This document shows positions 2,682-63,625 of a stretch of DNA of 64,000 nt, one piece after another; the first letter of the stretch is position 1, and every line of letters starts with the position of its first letter. A model generated the notes under the pieces. That model was not told the DNA's origin. It did not search any database and saw nothing but the letters and a program-made list of their open reading frames with translations. Source of the stretch: an uncultured Gammaproteobacteria bacterium (GTDB taxonomy: Bacteria; Patescibacteriota; Patescibacteriia; UBA9934; CAZDDW01); NCBI GenBank assembly GCA_965231015.1, contig OZ246408.1:620115-684114 (forward strand), written 5' to 3'. Both the position numbers and the translations under genes were made by a program.

Positions 2682-4033
2682 CTAGCCACTTCATCAATAT
2701 CCCCTGCCCCCATAATCAAAATTACATCGTTTGGCTTAGCAAGTTTACGAGTCATCTGCTCGGCCTGATCCAGATCTCGGGCATAACGAGCTTCGACTAT
2801 ACCGCGGTCGTTAATTGCCTCAACTAGTTTCCGGCTCGAAATCTCTTCCCGCTCCTCATCACGCCCGGCCACGTCATAAACTTCTGAAACGATCAGCTTA
2901 TCTGCCTTATCAAAACTTGGCACGAACTCGTCAAACAACTCAATCGTTCGTGCATGTTGGTGCGGTTGGAAACAAAGCAGGATTGATCGGTCGGAATAAA
3001 ACTCTTTGGCCGCCTTTAGAGTGTCGGAAATTGCTGTTGGATGGTGGCCGTAATCAGAGATAATTGGCGCGCCATCAAGCTCACCGACGAGCTCAAACCG
3101 TCGCCAAATTCCACCAAAAATTTTCAAGGTCTTTACAATTGTCTCGAACTTGACGCCGATCTTCAGAGCTGCCGTGATTGCGGCCAAAGCATTTTCAACA
3201 TTAAACTCACCAGGCATCACGAACTCGACCATGCCAAGCTCCTCGTGAGCGTGCGTCAAATCAAAACTTTGTCGACCAGATTCAACTACTCGATTCGAGC
3301 CAGCCACATGAGCCTCAACCTCAAATCCGTATGACAGAATCCTGTTTCCCGTCAGCTTCATGGACTCTATATCATTGGCGTTGCGGATTAACAGACCCTC
3401 CTCTGGAGGAAGTTTATCCACCAATTGCTGGAAGGTATTTCGGATATGATCTAAATCTTTATAAAAATCTAAATGATCTTCTTCGATATTGGTCAACACA
3501 ATGATGTCCGGATTCAGGTGCAACATATTAGCTTGGTACTCACATCCCTCTACAAGCAAGAGATCACTGGAGCCAACTTGTAAATTTTTGTACTCAAACC
3601 CCGGAACTCGTGTTCCCACAAAGATAGTTGGATCTAATCCAGCCGCAATTAGAATCTTTCCAAGCATAGCGGTAGTGGTTGATTTTCCATTGGTTCCGGT
3701 TACCACGATGGTGGTGTAATTTTTGGAAAGCTCTCCCAAAAATTCAAAATAACTTAGTTGTCGTACCCCGAGTTCTTTGGCCCGGGCTCGTTCTGGGTCA
3801 TCCTCAGGCACAGCTGAAGAAAAAATAACCAAGTCTGTTTCTTTGGAAATCAACTCTGGAGCATGACCAATCTTTAATACGGCCCCAGTCGCTGCGAACT
3901 CGTCTGTCAATTCCGTGGCCTTAATATCAGTTCCTGTCACCTGATTACCTTTTAAAACCAAAAACTTACCGGTCGCAGAAAGACCAACGCCACCAGCTCC
4001 AATAATATGTATTTTTTGAATCTTATCCATCAT
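2672..4033 (-). CDS. murC: UDP-N-acetylmuramate--L-alanine ligase
   Basis: 453 aa with an N-terminal Rossmann GAGGVGLS motif, the Mur ligase P-loop GTNGKSTTTAML, and DYGHHPT in the C-terminal domain. Confidence 0.9.
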   Translation of the reverse strand: MMDKIQKIHIIGAGGVGLSATGKFLVLKGNQVTGTDIKATELTDEFAATGAVLKIGHAPELISKETDLVIFSSAVPEDDPERARAKELGVRQLSYFEFLGELSKNYTTIVVTGTNGKSTTTAMLGKILIAAGLDPTIFVGTRVPGFEYKNLQVGSSDLLLVEGCEYQANMLHLNPDIIVLTNIEEDHLDFYKDLDHIRNTFQQLVDKLPPEEGLLIRNANDIESMKLTGNRILSYGFEVEAHVAGSNRVVESGRQSFDLTHAHEELGMVEFVMPGEFNVENALAAITAALKIGVKFETIVKTLKIFGGIWRRFELVGELDGAPIISDYGHHPTAISDTLKAAKEFYSDRSILLCFQPHQHARTIELFDEFVPSFDKADKLIVSEVYDVAGRDEEREEISSRKLVEAINDRGIVEARYARDLDQAEQMTRKLAKPNDVILIMGAGDIDEVARKL

Positions 4034-6999: not shown

Positions 7000-8691
7000 T
7001 TATTTCTTTTGTTGAACTGGTTTGGCTGGTTTTTCTCCATTCTTGGGTCTATCATCATAGTGTTTAACTCTTCGTAAAACCAGCCAACGCAACAGAATAA
7101 TGATCAAGGCCGCGATAATTCCCCAACAGTAGTTCACAAGAATTGCAATGACTACCGGAATTAAGAAGGCCAACACCGGAAGCATGTAATACACCACCAT
7201 TCGCTTTTCATTCAAACGTTTCTTTTCGTTATAAATCCGTCGTCGGAACCATGAAACGGTTGATAGAATGACCCCAACAATCAAAATCCATAACAACCAA
7301 GGGCAAATCCAGGAACACACGCCTGGTAAAAACATGCAGGCACAACATGTTCCACTGGTGGCCGCGGCTGATTTATCATCGTCATCAACTGGAGCAGTAA
7401 CACTGGAACAACCCCCACAGTCATCCGGACAGTTTACACAAGTCTCATCCGGCTGACACACATCATCACCACACGTATCCGCACACTCACCACAATCTGC
7501 GGAGCAACTCTCACAATTTTCCCCACATTCTAAACGACATTCTCCGTCACCACAATACTTATCGCGGCACGGGTCACATTCACCACAATCATCCGGACAA
7601 TTTTCGCACCCCTCTCCACACTGACTATCACAAACCCCGTCTCCGCAATCACTATCACACTGATCCGGATCTAAGCATTCCCCACAATCACCCGGACAAT
7701 TTTCACACCCTTCGTCACATTCAGGTACACACATTCCATCACCGCAGGTTGAATCGTCACACGGACTTGGCTCATAACACTCACCACAGTCATCAGGACA
7801 CGTGTCACAAAATTCGTCGCACTCTTCCTGACACACTCCATCACCACAATCTACTTCAGCACACGGATCCTCTTCACACTCTCCACAGTCCCATGGACAA
7901 TTGTAGCAGGTCTCGTCACACTCCGGCTGGCAAACACCGTCACCGCAGTCTACAAAATCACACTCACCATGTGGCTCATCACCCGGACACTCACCACAAT
8001 CACCCGGACAGTTTTCACAGGTCTCGTCACACTCCGGCTGGCAAACACCGTCACCGCAGTCTACAAAATCACACTCACCGTGCGGCTCACCACCAGGGTC
8101 ATTAGTGGTTTCCTGACAATTGGCTCGAACTTCGGCTTCAGTTTGGTAAACACTGATTGCTAAACCGGTTCCGGGCACACACATAGGTTCTGAAACATAA
8201 TCTATTCCATACCAGCCAGTTGACGGATCATGATAACAACACCAAACCGGCCCCCCGGTTTGATCCCCCGGACACTCACCACAATCATCCGGACAAGAAT
8301 CACACGCCTCATCACATTCCTCATCACAAACCCCGTCTCCGCAGGTTACTTCACCACATGGGTCATCACCGGGACACTCTCCACAATCTTCCGGACACCA
8401 GGTGCATTCTTCGTCACACTCGATGTCACATACACCATCACCACACACAACCCCGTCACAAGGACCGGGTTCCTCCTCCTCGTGTTGGCAACATTCAGGA
8501 AAAGCAATACAACACTCATCCTGACAAGCCGTGTCTCCCTCACAACCAATATAACAATCATCAAAATATGGTTGTGACTCTCCACACTCGGAATACCCAT
8601 TCATGGCCTCAGCCGGAGCTACACCCGGCAAAAATAAAAACAGGCCAAGAATCAGTCCTGCTAATGCAGATAACCTAAAATACTTTGGCAT
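7000..8691 (-). CDS. Cysteine-rich tandem-repeat membrane protein (563 aa)
   Basis: Signal peptide MPKYFRLSALAGLILGLFLFLPGVAPAEA. At least 13 repeats follow, of the form CGDGVCxxECDExCxxCPxDCGEC with 6 Cys in ~27-37 aa. A poly-D linker and 2-3 C-terminal TM helices with a basic tail complete the protein. Confidence 0.7.
   Translation of the reverse strand: MPKYFRLSALAGLILGLFLFLPGVAPAEAMNGYSECGESQPYFDDCYIGCEGDTACQDECCIAFPECCQHEEEEPGPCDGVVCGDGVCDIECDEECTWCPEDCGECPGDDPCGEVTCGDGVCDEECDEACDSCPDDCGECPGDQTGGPVWCCYHDPSTGWYGIDYVSEPMCVPGTGLAISVYQTEAEVRANCQETTNDPGGEPHGECDFVDCGDGVCQPECDETCENCPGDCGECPGDEPHGECDFVDCGDGVCQPECDETCYNCPWDCGECEEDPCAEVDCGDGVCQEECDEFCDTCPDDCGECYEPSPCDDSTCGDGMCVPECDEGCENCPGDCGECLDPDQCDSDCGDGVCDSQCGEGCENCPDDCGECDPCRDKYCGDGECRLECGENCESCSADCGECADTCGDDVCQPDETCVNCPDDCGGCSSVTAPVDDDDKSAAATSGTCCACMFLPGVCSWICPWLLWILIVGVILSTVSWFRRRIYNEKKRLNEKRMVVYYMLPVLAFLIPVVIAILVNYCWGIIAALIIILLRWLVLRRVKHYDDRPKNGEKPAKPVQQKK
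7909..8079 (-). repeat. Near-perfect 111-bp tandem duplication inside the Cys-rich gene
   Basis: A 60-bp core GGTCTCGTCACACTCCGGCTGGCAAACACCGTCACCGCAGTCTACAAAATCACACTCACC occurs at 7909-7968 and again at 8020-8079, a 111-bp period (37 aa). The protein shows the duplicated unit CGECPGDEPHGECDFVDCGDGVCQPECDETC. Confidence 0.7.
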
Positions 8692-8769
8692 AAGCCTTTT
8701 TATTATTTAATTTTAGAAATTATTATGTATATTTTACAGGAAAAAGTCATGTTTTTCAACTAAAACTGT

Positions 8770-8803
8770 TGATAAAAATGACTGCTGAGGAGCCCCTCAA
8801 CAG
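8770..8803 (-). terminator. Putative terminator after small GC-rich gene
   Basis: Minus strand: the hairpin GCTGTTGAGG/CCTCAGCAG has one mismatch and a 4-nt loop, then UCAUUUUUAUC. It follows the stop at 8805-8807. Confidence 0.4.
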
Positions 8804-8804
8804 C

Positions 8805-9059
8805 CTAGTAATCAGGGTCATATGACCGTAGTTCATGTTTCACCCGACGCAGGCGCGCGCTTAGAATTGCCCGTTCAGCTCGCGCTTTTTTGAGTTGTTG
8901 GTTGAGACTGATCCTGTCGATCAACCGAGGATTACGACTTCGCTCCAACTTCTGGAGATCTCGTTGTATGCCGCGAATCTCCGCGTCTTTGTTGCCGATT
9001 TTTCGTTGAAGCGAAGTCACTTCGGTTTTTACAACCTTGCGCTCCGCTTGCTTGCCCAA
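8805..9059 (-). CDS. Small basic coiled-coil protein (84 aa) in a mildly GC-rich cassette
   Basis: Very strong SD AGGAGGGAGGTG, a 5-nt spacer, then a TTG start. The protein is (M)GKQAERKVVKTEVTSLQRKIGNKDAEIRGIQRDLQKLERSRNPRLID..., with heptad-like periodicity and no family recognised. Confidence 0.45.
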   Translation of the reverse strand: MGKQAERKVVKTEVTSLQRKIGNKDAEIRGIQRDLQKLERSRNPRLIDRISLNQQLKKARAERAILSARLRRVKHELRSYDPDY

Positions 9060-9105
9060 GCATCACCTCCCTCCTATTTTACGTACTTTTACCGTACCAT
9101 AATTC

Positions 9106-9134
9106 TTGACTTTTTGGCCAATTTAAGGTATGGT
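9106..9134 (+). promoter_or_regulatory. Sigma70-like promoter TTGACT-17-TATGGT for folD (near-leaderless)
   Basis: TTGACT at 9106-9111, a 17-nt spacer, and TATGGT at 9129-9134. The folD ATG at 9145 is only ~10 nt from the -10 element and has no SD. Confidence 0.35.
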
Positions 9135-9144
9135 TTGGCTTGTT

Positions 9145-9966
9145 ATGGCAAAAATCATTGATGGAAAAAATTTGGCCTCCGAGATTCGCTCGGAAATAAA
9201 AACACGAATTGCCTCTAGTGGGATCCGTCCGGGTCTGGCCGTTCTTTTAGTTGGTTCTGATCCAGCGTCTCATTGTTATGTCGGAATCAAAGAAAAAGCC
9301 TGCGCTGAAGTCGGAATCAATTCAGAAAAATATCTATATTTTGCCAGTGAACCTGAAGAAAAACTAATTGAAAAAATAAAGGAACTGAACTCTCGAAATG
9401 ATATCAACGGAATCCTGGTTCAACTCCCATTACCTAATCAAAACAAGGACAAAGTCATTGCCGCCATTGATCCGGCTAAAGATGTTGATGGTTTTCACCC
9501 TGATAATTTATCTAAACTGGATTCAGACGAACCACACATGATTTCCCCGGTCGCCCTTGGGGTTATGAAGATGATTGAATCAACCGGTCGACCGATTACC
9601 AAGTCACGAGCTGTATTTATTGGGTCCAATCTTTTTGCCAAACCAATCGCCCACTTACTCCAAGAGCACGACGTTGAACTCGAGACAGTTGATCGAAATT
9701 CACCAAATCTTGAGCTGAAAACCCAAAAGGCAGATATTCTAATTGTCGCGGCCGGCCGGCCGAACCTTATCAAGGGCAACATGCTAAAACCGGGAGCAAT
9801 CGTAATTGATATCGGCACTACGAAAGTTGACGGCAGGATTGTCGGAGATGTTGAGTTTAGCTCTGCTGAGCCGGTTGCTGGCTGGCTGAGCCCGGTTCCT
9901 GGTGGGGTTGGACCAATGACCGTGGCTTATCTACTGGTAAACGTCCTGAAAGCGACTAAAAAATAA
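9145..9966 (+). CDS. folD: Bifunctional methylenetetrahydrofolate dehydrogenase/cyclohydrolase
   Basis: MAKIIDGKNLASEIRSEIKTRIAS...ILVQLPLP...GGVGPMTVAYLL, the canonical FolD domains. The start is placed at the ATG at 9145; the track ORF begins upstream in frame. Confidence 0.9.
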   Translation: MAKIIDGKNLASEIRSEIKTRIASSGIRPGLAVLLVGSDPASHCYVGIKEKACAEVGINSEKYLYFASEPEEKLIEKIKELNSRNDINGILVQLPLPNQNKDKVIAAIDPAKDVDGFHPDNLSKLDSDEPHMISPVALGVMKMIESTGRPITKSRAVFIGSNLFAKPIAHLLQEHDVELETVDRNSPNLELKTQKADILIVAAGRPNLIKGNMLKPGAIVIDIGTTKVDGRIVGDVEFSSAEPVAGWLSPVPGGVGPMTVAYLLVNVLKATKK

Positions 9967-9976
9967 ATAAACAAAA

Positions 9977-10018
9977 AATGACTGCCGAAAATATCGAGAG
10001 TCATTTTGTTTTTTTGTG
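9977..10018. terminator. Intrinsic terminator after folD (convergent with the permease gene)
   Basis: AATGACT/AGTCATT stem enclosing GCCGAAAATATCGAG, then TTTGTTTTTTTGTG. Confidence 0.55.
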
Positions 10019-10030
10019 ATGTTTAATATG

Positions 10031-11215
10031 TTATCCAAAAATCGAAAACCCAATTTCAGCTAAAGCCCCGGCAATAAACACAAAAGCAATAACGGCCAAA
10101 ATCCACATTGGAACCCTGAATACACTCTTGCGTTTCTTCATCTTTTTAAGCATGTTCGAATAGATGGCAATAATAACAACTGCAGTGGCTGAACCAAAAA
10201 CCGCACCTGTAAACGAAATTACGGTTATAAACTCGCGCAGTCCAAGGAAAAACAACAATCCGGGAACACCGATCGTTAGCGCCCAAGCCAACGTGTTTTT
10301 CATTTTGAAATCAAACAATAGAGTGTCTTTTACTTCAATCCCGGCCACCATAAAGACAGAGATAAGCGTGATTGATCCAAGCAACGATCCAAGCACAGCA
10401 ATGGTTGGACCAAGCGCCACCCCTAGCCCGGACAACGCATCATCTGTAATCAAATTACCGCTAGCACCCATAACCACAACCGCAAAAGCGATGTACAGCA
10501 ACAAAATCACACTCATGGTAATAATCACCGCTGGAAACATTTTTCGCTCGTGTTTTTCACCAAGAATATCGTGCATTTCCGGAGTGATACCAAGTCCGGC
10601 CATGGCAAAAAGAATCACCCCATACGGCAGTAAAACCTTATCCCAATTTACACTCATCAGGTGTGCAGTATCAACATGAGGAACCCCGGCTACAATAATG
10701 ACCCCAAACAAAAACAATAACAATAGCACAATGGCTGTTTCAGCCCGGGCAATAAACTTAAGTCCAAACCATAAAAATATGGCCTCAACTACAAAAAAGA
10801 CAGCACTATAAATAAAGGGTTCACCGCCAAAGATTGGTCCCAGCAACAACCACAAAAATTGACCGGCAATAATAACATAAGCCACCATGGCACCCCACAC
10901 CGTTCCAAACATTAAAGCAGTAGCCAACCATTTCCATTTTGTTCCAAGATACTTTTTAGCTAAACCACCCAGTCGACAATGGCCGGGAGTCTGAATCGTG
11001 ATTTCGGCATACAGCATCTGCAAAACAATCAGCAACGCTCCAATCAACAAGATCTCAACCAGCCCGATCCAAAAACCAGATTGAGCAAAAGCATACGGAA
11101 TACCAAATACTCCGGTACCAACAATAGCTCCGAACATGGCGGCCATGGCACGAATCTGTTTTTTATTTCCTTCGGTCATAACAAAGCTCATTATAACATA
11201 AAATCGCCTCAACAA
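10031..11215 (-). CDS. Amino-acid permease-like polytopic membrane transporter
   Basis: 394 aa with ~11 predicted TM helices. The GAIVGTGVFGIPYAF motif resembles the Trp/Tyr permease (HAAAP/APC) family. Substrate unknown. Confidence 0.6.
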   Translation of the reverse strand: MLRRFYVIMSFVMTEGNKKQIRAMAAMFGAIVGTGVFGIPYAFAQSGFWIGLVEILLIGALLIVLQMLYAEITIQTPGHCRLGGLAKKYLGTKWKWLATALMFGTVWGAMVAYVIIAGQFLWLLLGPIFGGEPFIYSAVFFVVEAIFLWFGLKFIARAETAIVLLLLFLFGVIIVAGVPHVDTAHLMSVNWDKVLLPYGVILFAMAGLGITPEMHDILGEKHERKMFPAVIITMSVILLLYIAFAVVVMGASGNLITDDALSGLGVALGPTIAVLGSLLGSITLISVFMVAGIEVKDTLLFDFKMKNTLAWALTIGVPGLLFFLGLREFITVISFTGAVFGSATAVVIIAIYSNMLKKMKKRKSVFRVPMWILAVIAFVFIAGALAEIGFSIFG

Positions 11216-11237
11216 GAGGCGATTTTATTCAGACCAA

Positions 11238-11801
11238 CTACATTTCAAAATCAAAACCCTCTAAATCCATTCCTTCAAACATGTCCTCGAACATTTGATC
11301 CATGTCACACACTTTTCCATCCGGCTTTAGCAAGCTGTTGTTAAATTTTTCACGATCACAATCAACCTTATACATAGCATTATCTTCGTACTGGGTGTAA
11401 TCGAATTCTTCCATGTCCTCTGATACTTCACCGTCTCCTTCTTCATAATATTCTTCAGTAGAAACAAACCAATCACATTCATCTGAACCCATCATGCTAC
11501 CAGAAGTGTAAAGTTTATCTCCGTTTTGGATAAAAACCGAGGTCATACCACCAAAATCAACCTCACCACGCATATCATCTCCCTTGATCCAATAGGTTGT
11601 TTCCATGCTTTCACTCTCATCATCTTCGGCAATAGTGACTCGACAAATAACTTCTTGACCTGAAGAAATAGCATCACTAATCTTGCCAAACTCAGCCTCA
11701 GCCGAACCAGCCGGAGCTTTTGACTGACCACAACCAGCACCGGTCAATACCAGTACCGCTATAATTGCAGTAATCGAAAAAACAAATCTCCGTTTTTGCA
11801 T
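11238..11801 (-). CDS. Hypothetical acidic lipoprotein (187 aa)
   Basis: Signal peptide with lipobox: MQKRRFVFSITAIIAVLVLTGAGCGQ. The C-terminus is highly acidic (EDMFEGMDLEGFDFEM). Confidence 0.55.
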   Translation of the reverse strand: MQKRRFVFSITAIIAVLVLTGAGCGQSKAPAGSAEAEFGKISDAISSGQEVICRVTIAEDDESESMETTYWIKGDDMRGEVDFGGMTSVFIQNGDKLYTSGSMMGSDECDWFVSTEEYYEEGDGEVSEDMEEFDYTQYEDNAMYKVDCDREKFNNSLLKPDGKVCDMDQMFEDMFEGMDLEGFDFEM

Positions 11802-11818
11802 ATTGATATTTTCAATAT

Positions 11819-12247
11819 TTATTCAAATTTTATATAACACTTATTTTCCAGATAACACCGCACTCCGCGACGCGAAGCATCAAAGTGAGGTTCTGGCAAT
11901 TCTTTCGGATCAACCCAAAGCCACTCTTCACACTTTTCCGGTTCCATTATCTTGAGTTCCTTTTTGTAGCTTCGAGCCAATAACACGACCGAGATGTAAT
12001 GCAAACCACATTCTTTGTGTGTTTCAAGGTTATTTGTTACCGCAATCACTTCCGGGTTTTCAATATCTAAATCTGTCTCCTCTTTGATTTCCCGAACCGC
12101 CCCATCTTCAAACTTTTCCCCCATTTCCAGGTGACCCCCAGGAATCGAATAATACGGCGCGTGAGCATTAATCCGCTTCCCTATCAAAATATTCCCCTCC
12201 TCATTCACAATTATCACTCCTAAGCCAACTTTGGGACACTCAGACAT
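11819..12247 (-). CDS. NUDIX hydrolase (MutT-like)
   Basis: 142 aa containing the Nudix box GGHLEMGEKFEDGAVREIKEETDL. Confidence 0.8.
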   Translation of the reverse strand: MSECPKVGLGVIIVNEEGNILIGKRINAHAPYYSIPGGHLEMGEKFEDGAVREIKEETDLDIENPEVIAVTNNLETHKECGLHYISVVLLARSYKKELKIMEPEKCEEWLWVDPKELPEPHFDASRRGVRCYLENKCYIKFE

Positions 12248-12289
12248 TTTTTTACATTAATTGTGGATATTATAGCACAAAAATCGTGG

Positions 12290-12720
12290 AGGTATAACTG
12301 ACTTAAAACAGAGGCCGTGTTAAAGATCAGTCATCGAAAAAAAACTGAAGGAGAATAGCATGAACGAACAACGGTAAAATCCTTCTGAACAACTGACCGC
12401 CAACCCATGGGCGATGCCGTTTCGTTTCGCGATCACGAGTGTATGCCACGCTGTCTGTGTGTGGGCCTGCATCAATCTCGGTTTTCGGAACCATGGTTGG
12501 TGATTCCTATTGGCCGGCGTCGCTGCATCCTTCGTGGGTCGTGCATACGTCAGCCATCGAGCAACACAACTGATCACCGAGCTCAAGGCCACACCACCCA
12601 GCCCCCCCTACGTCATCGGCACCTTCTGCTCAATCGATCTATTGCCTTCTCAGAGTAGATCTGTCTCGACCACACCCGATCCACCCCTACTCCGGGGAGT
12701 TATGTTTCTGTAGAAGAATA
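12290..12720. other. GC-rich ~430-bp element B with ambiguous coding potential (candidate structured ncRNA or decayed insertion)
   Basis: GC is markedly above the flanks. All three track ORFs (12320..12592 -, 12407..12658 +, 12510..12713 +) overlap and look non-protein-like. A long-range inverted repeat CCAACCCATGG (~12401) / CCATGGTTGG (~12491) is present. A tiny SD-led ORF, GAAGGAGAAtagcATGAACGAACAACGGTAA, sits at the 5' end. Confidence 0.3.
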
Positions 12721-12883
12721 TTTTACTTGTTAATTTAGTTAAATGAACAATTAATTCAATAACAAAAAATCCTCTGTGATTATTTTAATAATCGAATTTG
12801 GGGAGTCTTATTTTCACTGATTTGACCACAAAAATACGTGTATGTCAAGTGGAAAACCGTCATTTCTAGCCCTGTTGATAAGT

Positions 12884-12950
12884 TTGTCCTTCTAGGGTAA
12901 GATAAACGGGCTAATATGCCCGGCAGGACAACTTTGAATTTGTGTTTGTC
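12884..12950 (+). terminator. Nested hairpin with T-rich tail (terminator-like or small RNA element) upstream of dnaB
   Basis: TTGTCCT (12884-12890) pairs with AGGACAA (12925-12931), enclosing an inner hairpin CGGGC-TAATAT-GCCCG. CTTTGAATTTGTGTTTG follows. Confidence 0.3.
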
Positions 12951-13044
12951 GTGCAAAATTAGACGTCCGCCAAGAAAATTTAAAAATTTGTTGGTTTTAC
13001 GCGATCTGCTTAACTAATTCTAACGATATAAATTCAAAGCTGTA

Positions 13045-14544
13045 ATGCCGGATATGAGTCAAAACGAACGAATTCCACCGCAAAATATTGAAGCCGAGCA
13101 ATCTTTACTTGGATCACTTTTAATTGATAAAGATGCCATTATTCGAATCGGTGACACTCTTCAGGTGAACGATTTTTATAAAGATTCACATCAAAAAATT
13201 TACGAAGCCATCACTTATCTTTTTGCCAGACATGAACCAATTGATATTTTGTCTGTGGGAAACCGTTTAGAAGAACAAGGTATCTTGGATAAGGTGGGCG
13301 GCCGTTCGTACCTTGTGGAACTGTCCAACGCAGTCCCCACCTCAATGCACGCTCATCATTACGCCAACATTATTCAAAAGAAAGCCACCCTGCGCCGGCT
13401 GATTAACTCGGCTTCCGAAATTACAGCCATGGGTTTTGAAGAGGCAGATGATGTTGAGGCGACTCTGGACAAGGCTGAACAAAGTTTGTTTTCTGTTTCA
13501 CAAAAATATCTCAAACAGGCTTTTACTTCAATTAGAAATGTTTTGTCTGACGCCTTTGAACGTATCGATGAACTGCACAAGGAACGTGGCAAGCTGCGCG
13601 GCATTTCAACCGGATACAAAGAACTTGATAATCTGCTTGGTGGACTTCAACGCTCGGACTTGATTATTTTAGCGGCTCGACCATCGGTTGGTAAGACCTC
13701 TTTTGCTCTAGACATTGCGCGCAATGCCGCAACCAAGACCAAGCTACCGGTCGGACTATTCTCGCTGGAAATGAGTAAAGAACAACTGACCGATCGTTTA
13801 ATTTGTGCTGAAGCCAACGTTGATCTTTGGAAGCTCCGGACCGGACGCTTGAGTGACCGTGATGACGACTTCCCTCGTATTGGTCAGGCTCTTGGAACCT
13901 TGTCTGAAGCTCCGATATTTATCGATGACACCCCCGGTGCCAACATTATGGAAATCAGGACCAAAGCTCGCCGCTTGCAAACTGAACACGGTCTTGGTTT
14001 GATTGTGATTGATTATTTACAACTTATGGAGGGTCGGACCGGCAACTCTGATAACCGAGTTCAGGAAATGTCTGAAATTTCGCGTGCTCTAAAAGGAATC
14101 GCTCGCGAGTTGAATGTCCCGGTGTTGGCTCTCTCCCAGCTCAACCGTGCCGTTGAAATGAATAAGCCGGCTATTCCACGTTTAGCCCACCTTCGTGAGT
14201 CCGGTTCTATTGAACAAGACGCTGATGTGGTAATGTTTATCTACCGAAAAGCCGCTGACAGAAACTACAACCTGGAAGACCTGTCTCCAGAAGAAAAACG
14301 TTTGGCTGAAATCCATATTGGTAAACATCGTAATGGACCCACGGGAATGGTTAAACTGTTATTTGATGCTAAACGAGCCAGTTTCCGTTCGCTCGATCGC
14401 GTCCGTCAAGCTCCATCTGGTGCTCCGCCACCTCCTGGAAAAGATCAAGCGAACCCAGCTGAAGCGAAAAATAAATCTGATAACTCAAATGAAGTCGCAC
14501 CTCCCCCTGTAGGAGCGGTCGACTCTAAAAAAGTACCATTTTAA
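13045..14544 (+). CDS. dnaB: Replicative DNA helicase DnaB
   Basis: 499 aa with the DnaB N-terminal domain (NIEAEQSLLGSLL), a RecA-like core (Walker A AARPSVGKTSFAL, Walker B LIVIDYLQLM), and a ~60-aa Pro/Lys-rich C-terminal extension. Confidence 0.9.
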   Translation: MPDMSQNERIPPQNIEAEQSLLGSLLIDKDAIIRIGDTLQVNDFYKDSHQKIYEAITYLFARHEPIDILSVGNRLEEQGILDKVGGRSYLVELSNAVPTSMHAHHYANIIQKKATLRRLINSASEITAMGFEEADDVEATLDKAEQSLFSVSQKYLKQAFTSIRNVLSDAFERIDELHKERGKLRGISTGYKELDNLLGGLQRSDLIILAARPSVGKTSFALDIARNAATKTKLPVGLFSLEMSKEQLTDRLICAEANVDLWKLRTGRLSDRDDDFPRIGQALGTLSEAPIFIDDTPGANIMEIRTKARRLQTEHGLGLIVIDYLQLMEGRTGNSDNRVQEMSEISRALKGIARELNVPVLALSQLNRAVEMNKPAIPRLAHLRESGSIEQDADVVMFIYRKAADRNYNLEDLSPEEKRLAEIHIGKHRNGPTGMVKLLFDAKRASFRSLDRVRQAPSGAPPPPGKDQANPAEAKNKSDNSNEVAPPPVGAVDSKKVPF

Positions 14545-14547
14545 CTT

Positions 14548-14847
14548 ATGTTTCAAAAAATAAAAGCCGTTAAAGACCTGCGCAGTCAGGCCAAGGAAAT
14601 GCAAAACGCCATGTCCGAAATCACCGAGGTTGGTGAAGCGGCCTGGGGAAAAGTCAAGATTACTATCGATGGAAACCAGAACATCACCAATGTTGAAATT
14701 GATGAATCCATAATGGACAACCGGGAGAAACTACAAGAAGAGATCATGAACGCGTTTAATAATGGGTTAAAGAAAATTCAGAAAAAGATGGCCGGTAAAA
14801 TGAAAGAGATGGGTGGACTGGACGCACTCAAGAACTTCGATCTATAA
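14548..14847 (+). CDS. ybaB: Nucleoid-associated protein YbaB/EbfC
   Basis: 99 aa with a YbaB-type coiled coil. It lies immediately upstream of recR, the conserved ybaB-recR arrangement. Confidence 0.8.
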   Translation: MFQKIKAVKDLRSQAKEMQNAMSEITEVGEAAWGKVKITIDGNQNITNVEIDESIMDNREKLQEEIMNAFNNGLKKIQKKMAGKMKEMGGLDALKNFDL

Positions 14848-14850
14848 ACC

Positions 14851-15453
14851 ATGCGCAAGTTTCCTGAACCAATTGAAAACCTGGTTGCGGCGTTTGCCCG
14901 ACTGCCTGGCGTAGGGCCAAAAACGGCTCTGCGCTATGTTTTCTATTTATTGCGTTCGCCTCAGGGTGACATCGAATCATTCTCTCGAGCCTTACTTGAC
15001 CTGGCCAAAAATATAAAAGTTTGTGACACCTGTTTTACTTACACGACCGAGAATCGCTGTCACATTTGCTCGGACACTAAACGGTCAAGCTCGAGTCTTT
15101 GTGTAGTGGCAGAACCTCGAGATATTGCAACCATAGAGGCCACAAAACAGTTTGATGGGTTTTACCATGTGATCGGTGGAACACTTAACCCAATCGAGGG
15201 GGTTACTCCGGAAGTTTTGAACATTAAGCCTCTACTCGACCGCCTCGAAACCAATCCAGAGATTAAAGAAGTGATCCTGGCTTTTTCTCCTGACGTCCAA
15301 GGTGAGACCACAATTTTATATCTGACCAAACACATTAAACCTTTGGGCCGAAAAGTTACAAGACTCGCTCGCGGCCTGCCGCTCGGGGCAGACCTTGAGT
15401 TCGCAGACGAAATAACACTCGGCGACGCTATATCCGGCAGAAGAGAGACATAA
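14851..15453 (+). CDS. recR: Recombination protein RecR
   Basis: 200 aa with HhH (LPGVGPKTALRYVFYLL), a C4 zinc finger (CDTCFTYT...CHICSD), and Toprim. Confidence 0.9.
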   Translation: MRKFPEPIENLVAAFARLPGVGPKTALRYVFYLLRSPQGDIESFSRALLDLAKNIKVCDTCFTYTTENRCHICSDTKRSSSSLCVVAEPRDIATIEATKQFDGFYHVIGGTLNPIEGVTPEVLNIKPLLDRLETNPEIKEVILAFSPDVQGETTILYLTKHIKPLGRKVTRLARGLPLGADLEFADEITLGDAISGRRET

Positions 15454-15478
15454 AACGAGCTAGCAAGGCTCGTTTTCG
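15454..15478 (+). terminator. Intrinsic terminator after recR
   Basis: AACGAGC-TAGCAAG-GCTCGTT hairpin followed by TTTCG. Confidence 0.5.
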
Positions 15479-15479
15479 A

Positions 15480-15508
15480 TTGACACGACCTACTTTATTT
15501 GATAAGAA
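15480..15508 (+). promoter_or_regulatory. Consensus sigma70 promoter TTGACA-17-TAAGAA of GC-rich cassette C
   Basis: TTGACA at 15480-15485, an exact 17-nt spacer, and TAAGAA at 15503-15508. SD GAGGAGGAGG at 15510-15519 and ATG at 15525 follow. Confidence 0.5.
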
Positions 15509-15524
15509 CGAGGAGGAGGTGCCC

Positions 15525-15869
15525 ATGTCCGTCGAAGACAAGCTCCTGCCTGGACACTTGGCGATAATGCGAATGATCGAGATCACGGTTCGCAACTCGA
15601 CCAAGACGCCAAAGCCCAGCAAGCAAGATCTCGCCAAGACTCCTGCTGTGCTGAACGCTCTGTTCCAAACCCTTCTCATGTGCAACATCCCGAAGGACGA
15701 CCTGAAGATCGTGATCGGTCGAAGCCGTAACGCCATCAGCAACATGCGCCCCGAAGTCGACACCAAGAGACTGTTCAAAATTACCAAGGAACTTGAAGCG
15801 CGCTCGAGCATCCGGCACCGCACCAAGGAAATCATCCGTGGGACAATTAGCCGCATCACCGGAAGGTAA
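15525..15869 (+). CDS. Hypothetical protein (114 aa), cassette C gene 1
   Basis: ATG 5 nt after GAGGAGGAGG. The protein is MSVEDKLLPGHLAIMRMIEITVRNSTKTPKPSKQDL...; the region is GC-rich and no family was recognised. The track ORF 15480.. includes the untranslated promoter. Confidence 0.55.
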   Translation: MSVEDKLLPGHLAIMRMIEITVRNSTKTPKPSKQDLAKTPAVLNALFQTLLMCNIPKDDLKIVIGRSRNAISNMRPEVDTKRLFKITKELEARSSIRHRTKEIIRGTISRITGR

Positions 15870-15887
15870 TGAGGAAGGACTGGGTCA

Positions 15888-16178
15888 ATGAATTCGATCT
15901 ATGCTGAACTCGTAGAAACATACCTGCTGAACCAGATCAGCACCGCCAAGGGACTCATTGATTCGGACAACGCCTACTCCAATCTCGGAAGGCTGCTTGG
16001 CCGGATCGATGGAGCCGCGGCGACCTTGTTTCTCATCTGGCCCGAACTTGACCAAGAGACCCGGCGAAAAACCATCCTGGCTCTTGAGGAAGGTACCAAG
16101 ATCAAGGGAGGCCAGTTCTCACCTCTGCGCGATCTTTGCCAAGCTCACCACAACAAGCTCTCCAAGATCATCTTCTAA
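15888..16178 (+). CDS. Hypothetical protein (96 aa), cassette C gene 2
   Basis: SD GAGGAAGGA at 15871-15879 and ATG at 15888. The protein is MNSIYAELVETYLLNQISTAKGLIDSDNAYSNLGRLLGRIDGAAATLFLIWPELDQETRRK..., with no family recognised. Confidence 0.55.
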   Translation: MNSIYAELVETYLLNQISTAKGLIDSDNAYSNLGRLLGRIDGAAATLFLIWPELDQETRRKTILALEEGTKIKGGQFSPLRDLCQAHHNKLSKIIF

Positions 16179-16214
16179 CCAGAGAGAGTCATCAAGCAGC
16201 GTATACAAATTCCG

Positions 16215-16252
16215 AGCGGAACCCACCCAGGATCCCGCTCTTTTTTTATTTT
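16215..16252 (+). terminator. Intrinsic terminator of cassette C
   Basis: GAGCGG (16215-16220) pairs with CCGCTC (16235-16240), followed by TTTTTTTATTTT. The minus-strand neighbour's TAA stop falls inside the T-tract. Confidence 0.65.
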
Positions 16253-16629
16253 GCCAGATGTTCTTTTATTAATTCAATGTCTTGTTTGTCTTTTTCGCGC
16301 CCGAATCTACGTTTCCATTCGAGCACATGTTCAAGTCTTACATAAGGCCAACCATCAATCGTTTCAGCAGTTGAAATTAATTCTGCCTCATTTTCAAGCC
16401 ATGGCTGCCAGTTCCAAAAGATATCCACATCACCTACCACGATTTGCCCTTTTTCTTCATCAGTAATTCCATATTTTTTTGCGAGCTGATCCCACACCTC
16501 CTTTTTTACCAAAATATCCAAATCCCCCGGCTTTTTTAATCCACGAACAGCCATGGGTCCACTGCCAAAAATCGCAAACGAACCTTCGGGCAGATTAAGT
16601 TGTTTTAATTGATCAAGTAACTCGTTCAT
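16246..16629 (-). CDS. Small nucleotidyltransferase-domain protein (127 aa)
   Basis: GS...D.D minimal NTase signature (FAIFGSGPMAVRGLKKPGDLDILV). It overlaps the upstream cca gene by 4 nt. Confidence 0.5.
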   Translation of the reverse strand: MNELLDQLKQLNLPEGSFAIFGSGPMAVRGLKKPGDLDILVKKEVWDQLAKKYGITDEEKGQIVVGDVDIFWNWQPWLENEAELISTAETIDGWPYVRLEHVLEWKRRFGREKDKQDIELIKEHLAK

Positions 16630-17849
16630 ATCAATGTTTTAACAAATTGTTTAGCTTCTTCTAGACTTGAGACTCTACCATCAAGTTGTGCCATATAAAC
16701 TTGTTCAAGCACGCGTCCTACTTCTTCTCCCTCTTTCATTCCGAGTTCGATTAAGTCGTCTCCACCCAGAATCCGGGGTTCAGGTACGTGATCGACTTCG
16801 AGACCTCGAGCCAGATCGAGCAAGTCTGATTCTTGGCCGAGGATACTTTGAATGCGAGCCAATTCCTCGATCGTGGCCGGAAACAGACGCGCCGCCAATT
16901 TCTTGATCTTTGCCGGGTTATCAGAATTGAACCCAAGCTCACGAATCAACCGCTCGATTCGATCAGTTCGTTCCATACTTATCTCAATTCCTCGTAAGAA
17001 CTTTTTGGGTTTTTGCATGTCGCTAGTCAGAATCACAAGCATAGTATTAAGCCGATCGTTTGGTTCAAGCTCGAGCTTTGCCGCCCGATCAAGCTCATCA
17101 AGTATTTGTTTTGAATACCCAGCCTCGAGTTCAGGGTGCAGTTGTTTGATGACCCCGATCTCTTGGGCTGCTGCGAGACCAACACTCGGTTTCGGTGATA
17201 AAGTTAACATCTTAACCCACTCTTCACCAATCCGACTAGCCGGCAAGCTGGTCATGTCCGTAGTTCGAGCGACTTCGAGCGTGGCGGGGTCGATCTTAAA
17301 ATCAAAGCGTCCAGCAAACTGAGCAGCTCGCAACGGCCGCAGTGGATCTTCACCAAATGAATCAGCGTCTACCATTTTGATTAACCCTGACTCGATATCT
17401 TTTACCCCACCGTACGGATCAACCACCTCATCCGTTAAAGGATCAATTCCAATCGCGTTCATGGTGAAATCACGGCGACGAAAAGCCTCTTCATGACTCA
17501 TGCCAGGATCATACTTGGTTTCTACATCCTTATGACCGGGACCAACCTGCCTATCCCTGCGTGGCAAAGACACGTCAACTCCATCCACTTGAAACACCTC
17601 AAACTGTTTTCCCACTTCTTGAACTTCACCAAAAGTCTTCAACAATTTTTCGAGCTTGTTCTTCTCTATCCCGTAAACCTCAACATCGATATCTTTGCTA
17701 ACAAGAACCTTTGCATCTTCTGGATCCTTTGCATCCCGTACATCTTCAATCATCCGATCTCTCGCATATCCACCCACGATCAAAGCTCGACCACCTGCTT
17801 CACGAACTGCCTTGGCTATTTTTTTTACTTTTTTAAATTGTTCTTTCAT
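16626..17849 (-). CDS. cca: CCA-adding tRNA nucleotidyltransferase (class II, poly(A) polymerase family)
   Basis: 407 aa. The N-terminal IVGGYARDRMI...DIDVEV corresponds to the GGxVRD/DxD head, followed by RRDFTMNAI and a helical body. Confidence 0.8.
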   Translation of the reverse strand: MKEQFKKVKKIAKAVREAGGRALIVGGYARDRMIEDVRDAKDPEDAKVLVSKDIDVEVYGIEKNKLEKLLKTFGEVQEVGKQFEVFQVDGVDVSLPRRDRQVGPGHKDVETKYDPGMSHEEAFRRRDFTMNAIGIDPLTDEVVDPYGGVKDIESGLIKMVDADSFGEDPLRPLRAAQFAGRFDFKIDPATLEVARTTDMTSLPASRIGEEWVKMLTLSPKPSVGLAAAQEIGVIKQLHPELEAGYSKQILDELDRAAKLELEPNDRLNTMLVILTSDMQKPKKFLRGIEISMERTDRIERLIRELGFNSDNPAKIKKLAARLFPATIEELARIQSILGQESDLLDLARGLEVDHVPEPRILGGDDLIELGMKEGEEVGRVLEQVYMAQLDGRVSSLEEAKQFVKTLI

Positions 17850-17861
17850 ATGCTTGACATT

Positions 17862-17897
17862 TTACACAAAAACCAAAATCCCGTCACTTAGACGGGA
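17862..17897 (-). terminator. Intrinsic terminator after rplU
   Basis: Minus strand: UCCCGUC-UAAGU-GACGGGA followed by UUUUGGUUUUUGUG. Confidence 0.5.
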
Positions 17898-17902
17898 CCT
17901 TG

Positions 17903-18214
17903 TTATTTGATGGATTCAATCTGTACTTCAGTAAAAGGTTGTCGGTGTCCGGTTTTTTTACGATAACGTGACTTTGACTTATATTTGATAACATCAATCT
18001 TCTTAGCTTTACCTTCACCAAGAACTTTACCCTTAACCTTGACACCATTAACAGTAGGAGTTCCGACTTTGACGTCTTTACCCTTTTCATCAGCCACGAG
18101 TAAGGCATCAAATTCTACCGACTTACCCTCTTCAAGATTAAGTTTTTCAACCTTGATGGTATCGCCTTCTTTAACTTTATATTGTTTTCCACCAGTTTTA
18201 ATGACAGCAAACAT
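17903..18214 (-). CDS. rplU: 50S ribosomal protein L21
   Basis: 103 aa beginning MFAVIKTGGKQYKVKEGDTIKVEKL, the canonical bL21 start. Confidence 0.9.
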   Translation of the reverse strand: MFAVIKTGGKQYKVKEGDTIKVEKLNLEEGKSVEFDALLVADEKGKDVKVGTPTVNGVKVKGKVLGEGKAKKIDVIKYKSKSRYRKKTGHRQPFTEVQIESIK

Positions 18215-24555: not shown

Positions 24556-24579
24556 AATGTGGATATTATAGCAGAAAAA

Positions 24580-27704: not shown

Positions 27705-28049
27705 TCATACCAAGCTGTTCCGTACCAGCCAGGAAATAATTGTGATAGCGACCATGGCCAGCAAAGACAAGCTAATGAGATACCTGGCCGGTTGTGTCAG
27801 GTGCATAGGCTTGTCTATTTTGGTGAAGTACGAATACATCAAAATCACATAAATAAGCCCGGAAAAGGCAAAAATTGCGTATTCCGGATAATTTTGAAAC
27901 CGACCGGACTTAATCTCAAGCCAGGCCATCCAATCGAAAGCCGCGACTATTAATACCAAATACCACCAAAAACGTTTCTTGAAACTGGCTGGAAAATTAA
28001 AATCCGGCTTCTTCACCGGCTCTTCTTGTTTTCCCCCCTCATTACTCAT
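27705..28049 (-). CDS. Hypothetical small membrane protein (114 aa)
   Basis: Three hydrophobic helices. It overlaps the upstream gene by 8 nt. Confidence 0.45.
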   Translation of the reverse strand: MSNEGGKQEEPVKKPDFNFPASFKKRFWWYLVLIVAAFDWMAWLEIKSGRFQNYPEYAIFAFSGLIYVILMYSYFTKIDKPMHLTQPARYLISLSLLAMVAITIISWLVRNSLV

Positions 28050-28462: not shown

Positions 28463-30090
<1,628 letters not shown>

Positions 30091-30109
30091 GCGCTCCGAA
30101 TATACGAGC

Positions 30110-30463
30110 CTAACGGTTTAACGCAACGGTTGGGGTACCAGCACTCACATACTCTGGCCCACTTGACGGAACCATACCGAGCATTTGTACTCGCTCATCA
30201 ATTTCAGCCATAGACCGACTTTCTGCCACTTGTGATTCAAGTCGCTCAGTTTCCAAACGCAAATCACTAATTGCGGTTTCTAAATCCCTGATCTCATACC
30301 CCTTGGTGACAGACCGGTTCACCTGAATGATGTAGAGCATTCCCACAATGAGAATCAGAGCAAGGACGATAATATTAATTAACGCTACGTGTTCTTCAAT
30401 AGCCTGTACAAACGACTTGGTTTGTTTAAGACCAGAAAACATTGTCTTACCGAATTTAGACAT
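30110..30463 (-). CDS. FtsL-like cell-division protein (single TM + coiled coil)
   Basis: 117 aa with TM helix LINIIVLALILIVGMLYII followed by a coiled coil. Its position directly after rsmH matches dcw-cluster order. Confidence 0.5.
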   Translation of the reverse strand: MSKFGKTMFSGLKQTKSFVQAIEEHVALINIIVLALILIVGMLYIIQVNRSVTKGYEIRDLETAISDLRLETERLESQVAESRSMAEIDERVQMLGMVPSSGPEYVSAGTPTVALNR

Positions 30464-31803: not shown

Positions 31804-32019
31804 AGGGACGGTATTAGAGACTACTGAAATTCCTCCAACTGCTGCGTCATGGGGACCCGATAACTTCGTCAACGTACGTTTTAGTACGTTTCCTTGTTAC
31901 CACCCCATTCCTTGCATTTGGAGTTTTTCAGCAGTCTCCAAGATTAATGTTTATCCAGGGAAAGAGTTCATACAAAAAAGTGGGCAACAACCCGCGCAAA
32001 CGAAGGCTGAAATTCCCCA

Positions 32020-32210
32020 CTTCATTCCACTTCTGTACCCTTCATAACCATTTTATCCCACTTTTGAACACGGGTCAACCACTTTATCCTTTATACTTTT
32101 TTACTTTATTTTAGCTATTTTTTCTTGATTTATCCACTTTCTGGGGATAACCCACCTTCCCCACTTTCCAGAATTAACCTTGCAGGTTGCTTAAAATTAT
32201 CCACAACAAA
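32020..32210 (-). promoter_or_regulatory. Array of direct AAGTGG(G/A) repeats (putative MraZ boxes) in mraZ upstream region
   Basis: On the minus strand at least 7 AAGTGG(G/A) motifs occur in two clusters, several ~10 nt apart (AAGTGGAATGAAGTGGGG; AAGTGGGGAAGGTGGG). MraZ is known to bind GTGGG-type direct repeats upstream of its own gene. Confidence 0.45.
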
Positions 32211-57422: not shown

Positions 57423-57496
57423 TCCGAGGTCGTCTAAGGGCAGGACACCAGGTTTTGGTCCTGGGAATCGGGGTTCGAATCCCTGCCTCGGAACCA
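57423..57496 (+). tRNA. tRNA-Gln (anticodon UUG), CCA encoded
   Basis: Manual fold: acceptor TCCGAGG/CCTCGGA; D-arm GTCT-AAGGGCA-GGAC; anticodon arm CCAGG-TTTTGGT-CCTGG with TTG at positions 34-36; T-arm CGGGG-TTCGAAT-CCCTG; discriminator A plus CCA at 57494-57496. Confidence 0.8.
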
Positions 57497-63520: not shown

Positions 63521-63625
63521 AGAATCACGTTATTTGTTTAAATTATATCATGTTTACGATTTCAAAACTAAAAAATTTGACCAAGCTTTAAATAAAGTTA
63601 TAAGATTGTTTTCTGGAGGTGAGAG

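What the first reader, a model, noticed from the sequence alone, without database searches (positions are those of the whole stretch)
12290..12720. GC-rich element B (and similar element D at 29640-30090): likely non-coding, possible structured RNAs
Both are ~430-450 bp and strongly GC-enriched. They contain several long-range complementary segments (B: CCAACCCATGG/CCATGGTTGG ~90 nt apart; D: CCTCGC-TATCGAG-GCGAGG and GGCG-GGGTCT-CGCC). Their only ORFs overlap on both strands and encode low-complexity Arg/Cys-rich peptides without usable start contexts. A GC-rich island in an AT-rich genome is the classic footprint of a structured RNA. I could not match either to RNase P, SRP or tmRNA consensus motifs. 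D does share GCUGGCAGGG with E. coli 4.5S RNA, but nothing else.
Basis: partly seen in the sequence, partly recalled or inferred. Interest (0 to 1): 0.5.

Follow-up and report, generated by a model that had tools for sequence, protein, structure and literature searches.

The report
Strain-specific orphan DNA between conserved promoters
The GC-rich patch "B" is a roughly 435-base non-coding insert found only in this one bacterial strain, with no sign of folding into an RNA or encoding a protein, and "D" is not one element but a promoter region, a small folded insert and an ordinary transcription terminator.

Summary
The window comes from a Patescibacteria (CPR) genome close to Uhrbacteria, with 44.8% GC. 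B's core (12380-12700) really is GC-rich: 57%, in the top 0.3% of windows. D as a whole is not (42%); only 29885-30035 is.

B has no Rfam match even at E<=10 and no folding excess on either strand (z +0.3 and +0.4; no local window below -2.3). It shows no codon periodicity, and its ORFs are no longer than in shuffles. No homologue turned up in 5.8 billion proteins (six frames), in 1.4 Mb of related loci, or in plasmid and phage records.

Relatives locate B precisely. Positions 12281-12715 sit between two conserved divergent promoters (NUDIX operon and dnaB). The segment is absent from relatives with 92%, 84% and 80% DnaB identity, and relatives down to 76% show no match to it. Their spacers are 100-511 nt, against 797 nt here. 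Three independent assemblies reproduce it exactly.

My best reading is an inert, strain-specific relic of inserted DNA, not a structured RNA.

D splits into three parts:
- the AT-rich tgt promoter/operator region;
- a 205-nt insert bounded by inverted repeats that folds well (z -3.7 and -4.7);
- the ftsL-operon terminator, which keeps its stem in a relative through two compensatory changes.

A third insert, MITE-like, sits on the dnaB start codon.

The parts
12281..12715 (.). Element B proper: a window-specific non-coding insert of about 435 nt (51.5% GC; core 12380-12700 is 57%).
   Evidence: Alignment A1, blastn and tblastx show homology to relatives stopping at about 12280 on the left. It resumes at about 12716 (MAFFT) or 12761 (tblastx) on the right. 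No match was found anywhere else. There is no fold excess and no coding signal.
12262..12283 (-). Conserved promoter motif of the NUDIX-hyp187 operon. On the minus strand it reads TGCTATAAT, an extended -10 box (12277-12269).
   Evidence: A 22-nt copy lies at 24558-24579, upstream of another minus-strand gene. It is 93% conserved in L161 and also conserved in L164, directly upstream of the homologous genes. The promoter function is inferred.
12716..12918 (+). Conserved dnaB upstream region with -35 TTGATA (12875-12880) and -10 TAAGAT (12898-12903). In relatives the dnaB ATG follows about 12 nt after the -10 box.
   Evidence: 84% identity over 132 nt to L161, and the hexamers are conserved in L161, L164 and L165. 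Promoter scan.
12919..13051 (.). MITE-like 133-nt insert with 22-nt terminal inverted repeats (12920-12941 / 13030-13051). It is flanked by ATATG on both sides (12914-12918 and 13052-13056) and sits on the dnaB start codon.
   Evidence: Inverted repeat. Absent from L161, L164 and L165, which read GGGCT(A/T)(A/T)TATG. It folds as one long hairpin, z -3.73. The DnaB product starting at 13054 is on record, the one starting at 13045 is not.
29615..29796 (-). AT-rich left part of 'D': the tgt promoter/operator region. It holds -10 TACAAT (29629-24), several promoter-like sites, and the palindrome TCACGATCGTGA (29748-29759).
   Evidence: 6 promoter-like sites against 0.9 expected. TACAAT next to the ATG is conserved in L174, and the palindrome is shared with L173 as TTTCACGATCGTGAAA. 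GC is 26-42%.
29797..30003 (.). GC-rich core of 'D': a 205-nt window-specific insert closed by the inverted repeat 29801-29816 / 29986-30001. It is predicted to form a multi-stem fold on either strand.
   Evidence: z -3.69 on the minus strand and -4.66 on the plus strand, with 0 of 200 shuffles as stable. Inverted repeat. Absent from L174, where the terminator is followed about 45 nt later by tgt. No Rfam match.
30006..30034 (-). Intrinsic terminator of the mraZ-rsmH-ftsL operon: 11-bp stem, 7-nt loop, then GTCTTTT.
   Evidence: Terminator scan. It is conserved in L174 with identical flanks and two compensatory stem changes (C-G to G-C, U-A to C-G).

Best explanation
Element B (12281-12715) is a strain-specific piece of non-coding DNA. 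It was inserted into the short spacer between two conserved, divergent promoters, that of the NUDIX-hyp187 operon and that of dnaB.

Shown: it is GC-rich and reproducible, it is missing from every relative examined, and it carries no detectable RNA-structure, RNA-family, coding or repeat signal.

Inferred: it is an inert relic of captured foreign or mobile DNA. It is tolerated because it leaves both promoters intact, and it lies in a spacer that repeatedly takes up inserts. The closest relative has its own unrelated 275-nt insert there, and the window has a second, MITE-like insert 200 nt further on.

Element D is a composite. It consists of the AT-rich promoter/operator region of tgt, a 205-nt insert bounded by inverted repeats and predicted to fold strongly, and the conserved intrinsic terminator of the ftsL operon.
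For: Composition. Reproducibility: 100% identity to three independent assemblies.

Absence from relatives: alignment A1 and blastn/tblastx against contigs with 92%, 84%, 80%, 77% and 76% DnaB identity. The spacer upstream of dnaB is 797 nt here, against 511, 337, 133, 108 and 100 nt in relatives. L164 has the two promoters about 10 nt apart.

No homologue: six-frame query against 5.8 billion proteins, nothing at E<=10; 179 related loci totalling 1.44 Mb; plasmids and phages; Pfam and PHROGs.

No RNA signal for B: Rfam; z +0.33 and +0.42; sliding z never below -2.3; no promoter or terminator inside B.

No coding signal; no gene called.

Other inserts nearby: the L161 insert flanked by a 24-nt direct repeat; the MITE-like insert.

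D parts.
Against: All the evidence for 'inert' is negative. A single-sequence fold z-score near 0 does not exclude an RNA with little structure, such as a C-rich antisense sRNA. No transcript data were available.

The source of B is unknown. I could not search the rest of the 1.0-Mb genome, nor bulk metagenome DNA at nucleotide level, for other copies. B has no terminal repeats or target-site duplication, so the insertion mechanism is not shown.

A good Shine-Dalgarno plus ATG at 12347-12362 opens only a 5-codon ORF and is unexplained.
Confidence: 0.55

Rival explanations
1. The GC-rich core of D (29797-30003) is a strain-specific structured non-coding RNA. One candidate is a plus-strand sRNA of about 290 nt, starting at the promoter-like site 29710-29737 and ending at the 30006-30034 hairpin used as a bidirectional terminator.
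For: Fold z is -4.66 on the plus strand and -3.69 on the minus strand, with 0 of 200 shuffles as stable. For 29800-30110 z is -5.9 and -5.1. A plus-strand promoter-like site lies upstream, and a strong hairpin followed by T-rich sequence lies downstream.
Against: The signal is equal on both strands, as expected from DNA-level inverted repeats of an insert. Scores of z <= -3.5 occur in 10 of 406 windows of this genome, some of them inside genes. There is no Rfam match. It is absent from the relative L174, and there is no homologue for covariation. The hairpin's conservation is already explained by its role as the ftsL-operon terminator. The plus-strand T-tract did not pass the terminator scan.
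Confidence: 0.2
2. Element B is a novel strain-specific small RNA with little secondary structure. An example would be a C-rich antisense regulator using the CCACACC...CCCCUAC stretches at 12589-12616 and 12669-12696.
For: B is a GC-rich island in an intergenic region. The plus-strand 3' half is C-rich, with GC skew down to -0.47. A weak CCCC/GGGG hairpin followed by a U-rich tail sits at 12687-12712 (read).
Against: There is no promoter-like or terminator-like site inside B, no fold excess, and no Rfam match. It is absent from a relative with 92% DnaB identity, so it is not conserved even within the genus.
Confidence: 0.12
3. B and/or D are decayed fragments of protein-coding genes. In particular, the 98-codon minus-strand ORF of D (30007-29714) would be a relic of an IPT/TIG-repeat surface protein gene.
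For: An exhaustive phmmer search of the D ORF gave 15 hits, all to IPT/TIG-repeat proteins, the best at E 1.6e-23 over 11 stretches. The alignment includes SLSPxSA, L(S/T)V and VxRW in register. The best of about 1,900 shuffled queries reached only 35 bits against the same proteins. In relatives the ftsL-tgt interval holds small ORFs.
Against: The best single stretch scores 16.3 bits (E about 900 database-wide). Against a profile of the repeat unit the ORF scores 10.8 bits (p 2.6e-5), and the best of 20,000 shuffles scores 9.8. The large E-value is therefore one weak match counted 11 times, and it does not survive correction for the number of repeat families. Pfam TIG is not hit even at E<=10. 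The family's most conserved G, F and G positions are not matched. There is no codon periodicity in B or D. For B, no frame hits anything.
Confidence: 0.1
4. B or D encodes a small orphan protein from one of the 44-98-codon ORFs.
For: Open frames of 83 and 90 codons in B and 98 codons in D exist.
Against: ORF lengths equal those of shuffles (P 0.38-0.55 for B, 0.12 for D). There is no periodicity. The native coding score is at or below zero where real neighbours score +3 to +11. The gene callers behind the Logan gene tables called nothing there.
Confidence: 0.03

Closest known systems
Lineage-specific intergenic insertions (orphan DNA in a hypervariable spacer)
   Same: B is a discrete indel with conserved flanks. 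It is absent from close relatives, compositionally atypical, and without coding or RNA signal. The same spacer carries different inserts in different strains.
   Different: No donor sequence, terminal repeats or target duplication were found for B, so neither its origin nor its insertion mechanism is shown.
MITEs (miniature inverted-repeat transposable elements)
   Same: The 133-nt insert at 12919-13051 has 22-nt terminal inverted repeats and a 5-bp flanking duplication (ATATG), and folds as a hairpin. The D core has 16-nt imperfect terminal inverted repeats.
   Different: No second copy of either was seen in the 64-kb window or in 1.44 Mb of related loci. No cognate transposase was identified. 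B itself has no terminal inverted repeats.
Structured bacterial RNAs of 200-450 nt (RNase P RNA, tmRNA, SRP RNA, 6S RNA, group I/II introns, large ncRNAs in Rfam)
   Same: Similar size, an intergenic position, and GC content above the genome mean.
   Different: No covariance-model match at E<=10. ARAGORN finds no tmRNA. B has no folding excess.
Rho-independent (intrinsic) terminators
   Same: 30034-30006 on the minus strand has an 11-bp GC-rich stem, a 7-nt loop and a T-tract. It lies 76 nt after the ftsL stop codon and is conserved with compensatory changes.
   Different: None; this part of 'D' is ordinary.

Membership tests
Known structured RNA families (Rfam 15: RNase P, SRP, tmRNA, 6S, introns, riboswitches and others) | Covariance-model score at or above the family's gathering threshold | tested here: not met
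   The whole window yields only tRNA-Gln at 57423. B and D scanned at E<=10 give only chance-level hits far below gathering scores: DicF 13.8 against 48 bits, P9 14.4 against 43, rnk leader 21.4 against 55.
Structured RNA in general | Folding energy clearly below that of dinucleotide shuffles | tested here: not met
   B: z +0.33 and +0.42, and the sliding minimum is -2.28. The D core does meet this criterion, with z -3.7 and -4.7, but such values occur in about 2.5% of windows here.
Structured RNA in general | Base pairs kept by compensatory changes in homologues | not testable with these tools
   No homologue of B or of the D core was found. Only the terminator hairpin could be compared, and it shows 2 compensatory pairs.
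tmRNA | tRNA-like domain plus tag reading frame | tested here: not met
   ARAGORN finds no tmRNA in the window.
Protein-coding gene | Three-base periodicity, native codon statistics, and an ORF longer than chance | tested here: not met
   Periodicity p values are 0.31 (B core) and 0.68 (D), against about 1e-6 to 0.1 for equal-sized gene pieces. ORF lengths lie within the shuffle distribution. Coding log-odds are at or below 0.
MITE | Terminal inverted repeats plus target-site duplication | tested here: not met
   For B, the only flanking inverted repeat (12249-12264 / 12747-12762, 81%) has its left arm inside the conserved promoter motif, and there is no duplication. The feature is met for the neighbouring 12919-13051 insert.
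MITE | Multiple copies in the genome | tested here: inconclusive
   There are no other copies of B, the D core or the 133-nt insert in the 64-kb window or in the related loci. The rest of the 1.0-Mb genome could not be searched.
IPT/TIG-repeat protein (as a pseudogene relic, D ORF) | Significant match to the repeat-unit profile | tested here: inconclusive
   The summed phmmer E-value is 1.6e-23. However, the best stretch scores 16 bits, the repeat-unit profile gives 10.8 bits with p 2.6e-5, and Pfam TIG is not hit.

The most novel reading that the evidence does not exclude
The 205-nt GC-rich core of D, and less probably B, is a new strain-specific non-coding RNA carried on a small insert. Together with the MITE-like insert on the dnaB start codon, this would show that small non-autonomous elements are actively remodelling promoters and leaders of core genes (dnaB, tgt) in a reduced 1-Mb CPR genome.
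Probability: 0.15. Interest if true: 0.45.

Novelty: new member of a known kind. Interest (0 to 1): 0.15.

Why it matters
Mostly it matters as a caution. In a genome of 45% GC, a GC-rich intergenic island is not a reliable footprint of a structured RNA. Here the strongest island is an orphan insert with no RNA or coding signal.

A minor positive point concerns genome dynamics. The spacer upstream of dnaB and the ftsL-tgt spacer in this small CPR genome are insertion hot spots that differ between close relatives, and one insert has rebuilt the dnaB leader. If any of these inserts were expressed, they would be examples of very young regulatory RNAs.

The work also shows how a summed E-value against repeat proteins (1.6e-23) can arise from a single 10-bit resemblance.

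Tried and rejected
- Known RNA family. Rfam at gathering thresholds and at E<=10, on wide and narrow slices, plus ARAGORN, found nothing.
- Thermodynamic structure in B. Whole-element and sliding z-scores show none.
- Conservation next to dnaB or NUDIX. 80 genome loci and 80 metagenome loci were compared by blastn, nhmmer and tblastx, with no match.
- Closer relatives. DnaB and Tgt protein searches, followed by contig look-ups, gave relatives at 92-76% identity. All lack B and the D core.
- Pseudogene or hidden gene. The six-frame translation of B against 5.8 billion proteins gave nothing at E<=10. Pfam and PHROGs on all ORFs gave nothing. Periodicity, ORF-length and coding-score tests were negative.
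- Plasmid or phage origin. blastn in distant mode gave no match for B and only two 21-28-nt chance matches for D.
- B and D as copies of one element. They share no similarity.
- SRP RNA for D. Only the 10-mer matches, and no SRP model hits.
- TIG-repeat relic for the D ORF. It looked strong, but the score comes from a single weak match counted once per repeat.
- Assembly artefact. Rejected, because three independent assemblies are identical.
- Replication origin. The cumulative GC skew falls monotonically across the window with no turning point.
- Failed steps. A literature search for the run accessions found nothing.

Full report
**Context**

The window has 44.8% GC. It carries housekeeping genes of a Patescibacteria (CPR) bacterium. 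DnaB is most similar to Uhrbacteria and Magasanikbacteria proteins.

- B lies in the 797-nt spacer between a minus-strand NUDIX gene (11819-12247) and dnaB on the plus strand.
- D lies in the 495-nt spacer between ftsL (30110-30463, minus; last gene of mraZ-rsmH-ftsL) and tgt (28463-29614, minus).

**Checking the observation**

B is GC-rich. The stretch 12290-12720 has 51.3% GC and the core 12380-12700 has 57.0%. Only 0.3% of equal-length windows reach the core value.

D is not GC-rich. The stretch 29640-30090 has 42.1% GC, below the mean. Only about 150 nt (29885-30035) reach 57.6%, and the left 180 nt are 26-42% GC.

B and D share no similarity with each other. Three independent Logan assemblies from different sequencing runs match the window at 100% over 8050-18191 and 18463-39614, so neither region is an assembly artefact.

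**Is B a structured RNA?**

- Rfam at gathering thresholds finds only tRNA-Gln at 57423 in the whole window.
- Permissive scans at E<=10 of 12200-13100 and of 12275-12720 give only chance-level hits far below gathering scores.
- ARAGORN finds no tmRNA.
- The 341-nt core folds no better than dinucleotide shuffles: z +0.33 on the plus strand and +0.42 on the minus strand.
- No 120-nt sliding window in B falls below z -2.3.
- The promoter and terminator scan places nothing inside B.
- The CCAACCCATGG/CCATGGTTGG pair is not used in the minimum-energy fold.

**Is B coding or a pseudogene?**

- A frame-specific Markov score trained on the window's long ORFs stays at or below zero across B. The neighbouring NUDIX and dnaB genes score +3 to +11.
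- There is no three-base periodicity (chi2 7.1, p 0.31). Equal-sized pieces of real genes give p from about 1e-6 to 0.1.
- The longest open frame (89-95 codons) equals the shuffle mean.
- A concatenated six-frame translation of 12300-12730 found nothing at E<=10 among 5.8 billion proteins.
- Pfam and PHROGs found nothing for the individual ORFs.
- The gene tables that come with the identical Logan contig list no gene between NUDIX and dnaB.

**What relatives show**

Neither B nor D matched anything in 160 loci around DnaB or NUDIX homologues, nor in plasmid or phage collections.

Closer relatives were reached through DnaB. Contigs with 92% (L161-163), 84% (L164), 80% (L165-166), 77% (L176-178) and 76% (L179) DnaB identity were compared. 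The alignment, blastn and tblastx give a clear picture:

- 12250-12280 is conserved. On the minus strand it reads TGCTATAAT, an extended -10 promoter. It sits directly upstream of the homologous hyp187 or NUDIX gene in L161 and L164, and it recurs at 24558-24579 in the window.
- 12716/12787-12918 is also conserved (84% to L161). It holds the dnaB -35 TTGATA and -10 TAAGAT. In all relatives the dnaB ATG follows about 12 nt later.
- Between these two conserved blocks, 12281-12715 has no counterpart.

At the same site, L164 has the two promoters about 10 nt apart, in a 100-nt spacer. L161 has an unrelated AT-rich 275-nt segment flanked by a 24-nt direct repeat (ATTTGTTAATTCAATTGAATTAGA).

Spacer lengths upstream of dnaB are 797 nt (window), 511, 337, 133, 108 and 100 nt. 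B is therefore a discrete insertion of recent, strain-level age, in a spacer that has taken up different inserts in different lineages.

**A second insert in the same spacer**

The stretch 12919-13051 is absent from L161, L164 and L165. It has 22-nt terminal inverted repeats, is flanked by ATATG on both sides, and folds into one long hairpin (z -3.7).

It landed exactly on the dnaB start codon. The old ATG (12916) now opens a 33-codon ORF. The working dnaB ATG is at 13054, because the product starting there is on record and the one starting at 13045 is not. This is MITE-like, although no second copy was seen.

**Anatomy of D**

1. 29615-29796 is AT-rich and holds 6 promoter-like sites against 0.9 expected. 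It includes TACAAT next to the tgt ATG, conserved in L174, and the palindrome TCACGATCGTGA, shared with L173. This is the tgt promoter/operator region (function inferred).
2. 30006-30034 is an 11-bp hairpin followed by GTCTTTT on the minus strand, 76 nt after the ftsL stop codon. L174 keeps the flanks and the outer stem and changes two inner pairs on both sides (C-G to G-C, U-A to C-G). It is the operon's intrinsic terminator.
3. Between them, 29797-30003 is GC-rich and closed by the inverted repeat 29801-16 / 29986-30001. It folds far better than shuffles on both strands: z -3.69 and -4.66, with 0 of 200 shuffles as stable. It is missing in L174, where the terminator is followed about 45 nt later by tgt. 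Rfam has no match.

For calibration, across the whole window 10 of 406 windows of 210 nt reach z <= -3.5, some of them inside genes. The D core is therefore in the top 2-3%, not unique. Equal stability on both strands is what inverted repeats at the DNA level produce.

**The TIG lead**

The 98-codon minus-strand ORF of D, searched exhaustively against 1.84 billion representatives, returned 15 proteins. All are IPT/TIG-repeat proteins, the best at E 1.6e-23 over 11 stretches.

Three checks weaken this result:

- The best single stretch scores 16.3 bits, which is E about 900 database-wide.
- A profile of the repeat unit, built without reference to the query, scores the ORF at 10.8 bits (p 2.6e-5). 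The best of 20,000 shuffles scores 9.8.
- Pfam TIG is not hit at E<=10.

About 1,900 shuffled queries reached at most 35 bits against the same proteins. The tail steepens with repeat number, so p is about 1e-5 per repeat family, which does not survive multiple testing. I treat it as unproven.

**Conclusion**

B is best explained as an inert, strain-specific relic of inserted DNA lying between two intact divergent promoters. The structured-RNA reading is not supported for B.

D is a composite of a promoter region, a folded insert bounded by inverted repeats, and an ordinary terminator. Only the 205-nt insert remains a weak RNA candidate.

All statements of 'no function' rest on negative evidence. 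Transcript data would decide.

Noticed in passing
window 12919-13051: A MITE-like 133-nt insert with 22-nt terminal inverted repeats and a flanking ATATG duplication sits exactly on the dnaB start codon and is absent from three relatives. It folds as a long hairpin (z -3.7). The old ATG (12916) is left opening a 33-codon ORF, and the working ATG is at 13054.
   Followed up: partly
window 12262-12283 and 24558-24579: A shared 22-nt motif, TTGTGGATATTATAGCACAAAA, lies upstream of two minus-strand genes and is conserved in relatives L161 and L164. On the minus strand it is an extended -10 promoter (TGCTATAAT). It also contains a DnaA-box-like TGTGGATAT.
   Followed up: partly
window 30006-30034 and L174 2805-2830: The intrinsic terminator after ftsL is conserved with two compensatory stem changes. 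In this lineage the mraZ-rsmH-ftsL cluster ends here and is followed by tgt rather than by ftsI.
   Followed up: yes
window 29748-29759; L173 about 3398-3422: The palindrome TCACGATCGTGA (TTTCACGATCGTGAAA in L173) lies upstream of tgt in two genomes. Further TTTCAC half-sites occur at 29664-29800. It looks like an operator for an unknown regulator.
   Followed up: no
L161 3724-4068: The closest relative (92% DnaB identity) has its own unrelated 275-nt AT-rich insert at the B site. It is flanked by a 24-nt direct repeat containing the palindrome TAATTCAATTGAATTA, which suggests a recurrent insertion or recombination site.
   Followed up: partly
window 15454-16245; L164 7569-8471: Downstream of recR the window has two GC-rich peaks (15521-15820 and 15941-16240, 55% GC) that partly overlap small called genes without Pfam hits. 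Relative L164 carries a reverse-transcriptase (RVT_1) gene downstream of recR.
   Followed up: no
window 36921-37220 and 63611-63910: These are the other two strongest GC peaks of the window (60% and 57%). Both fall inside ORFs; the first is a called gene with no Pfam hit on record.
   Followed up: no
window 31816-32025, 8506-9030, 27721-27930: These windows have the most negative fold z-scores in the calibration scan (-4.5 to -5.9). The first is upstream of mraZ, where TTATCC-type repeats occur.
   Followed up: no
window 12347-12377: A strong Shine-Dalgarno (GAAGGAG) plus ATG at 12360 opens only a 5-codon ORF (MNEQR*) inside B. Read through two stops, the same frame stays open to 12713.
   Followed up: partly
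window 42098-52798: A giant 3566-codon minus-strand ORF.
   Followed up: no
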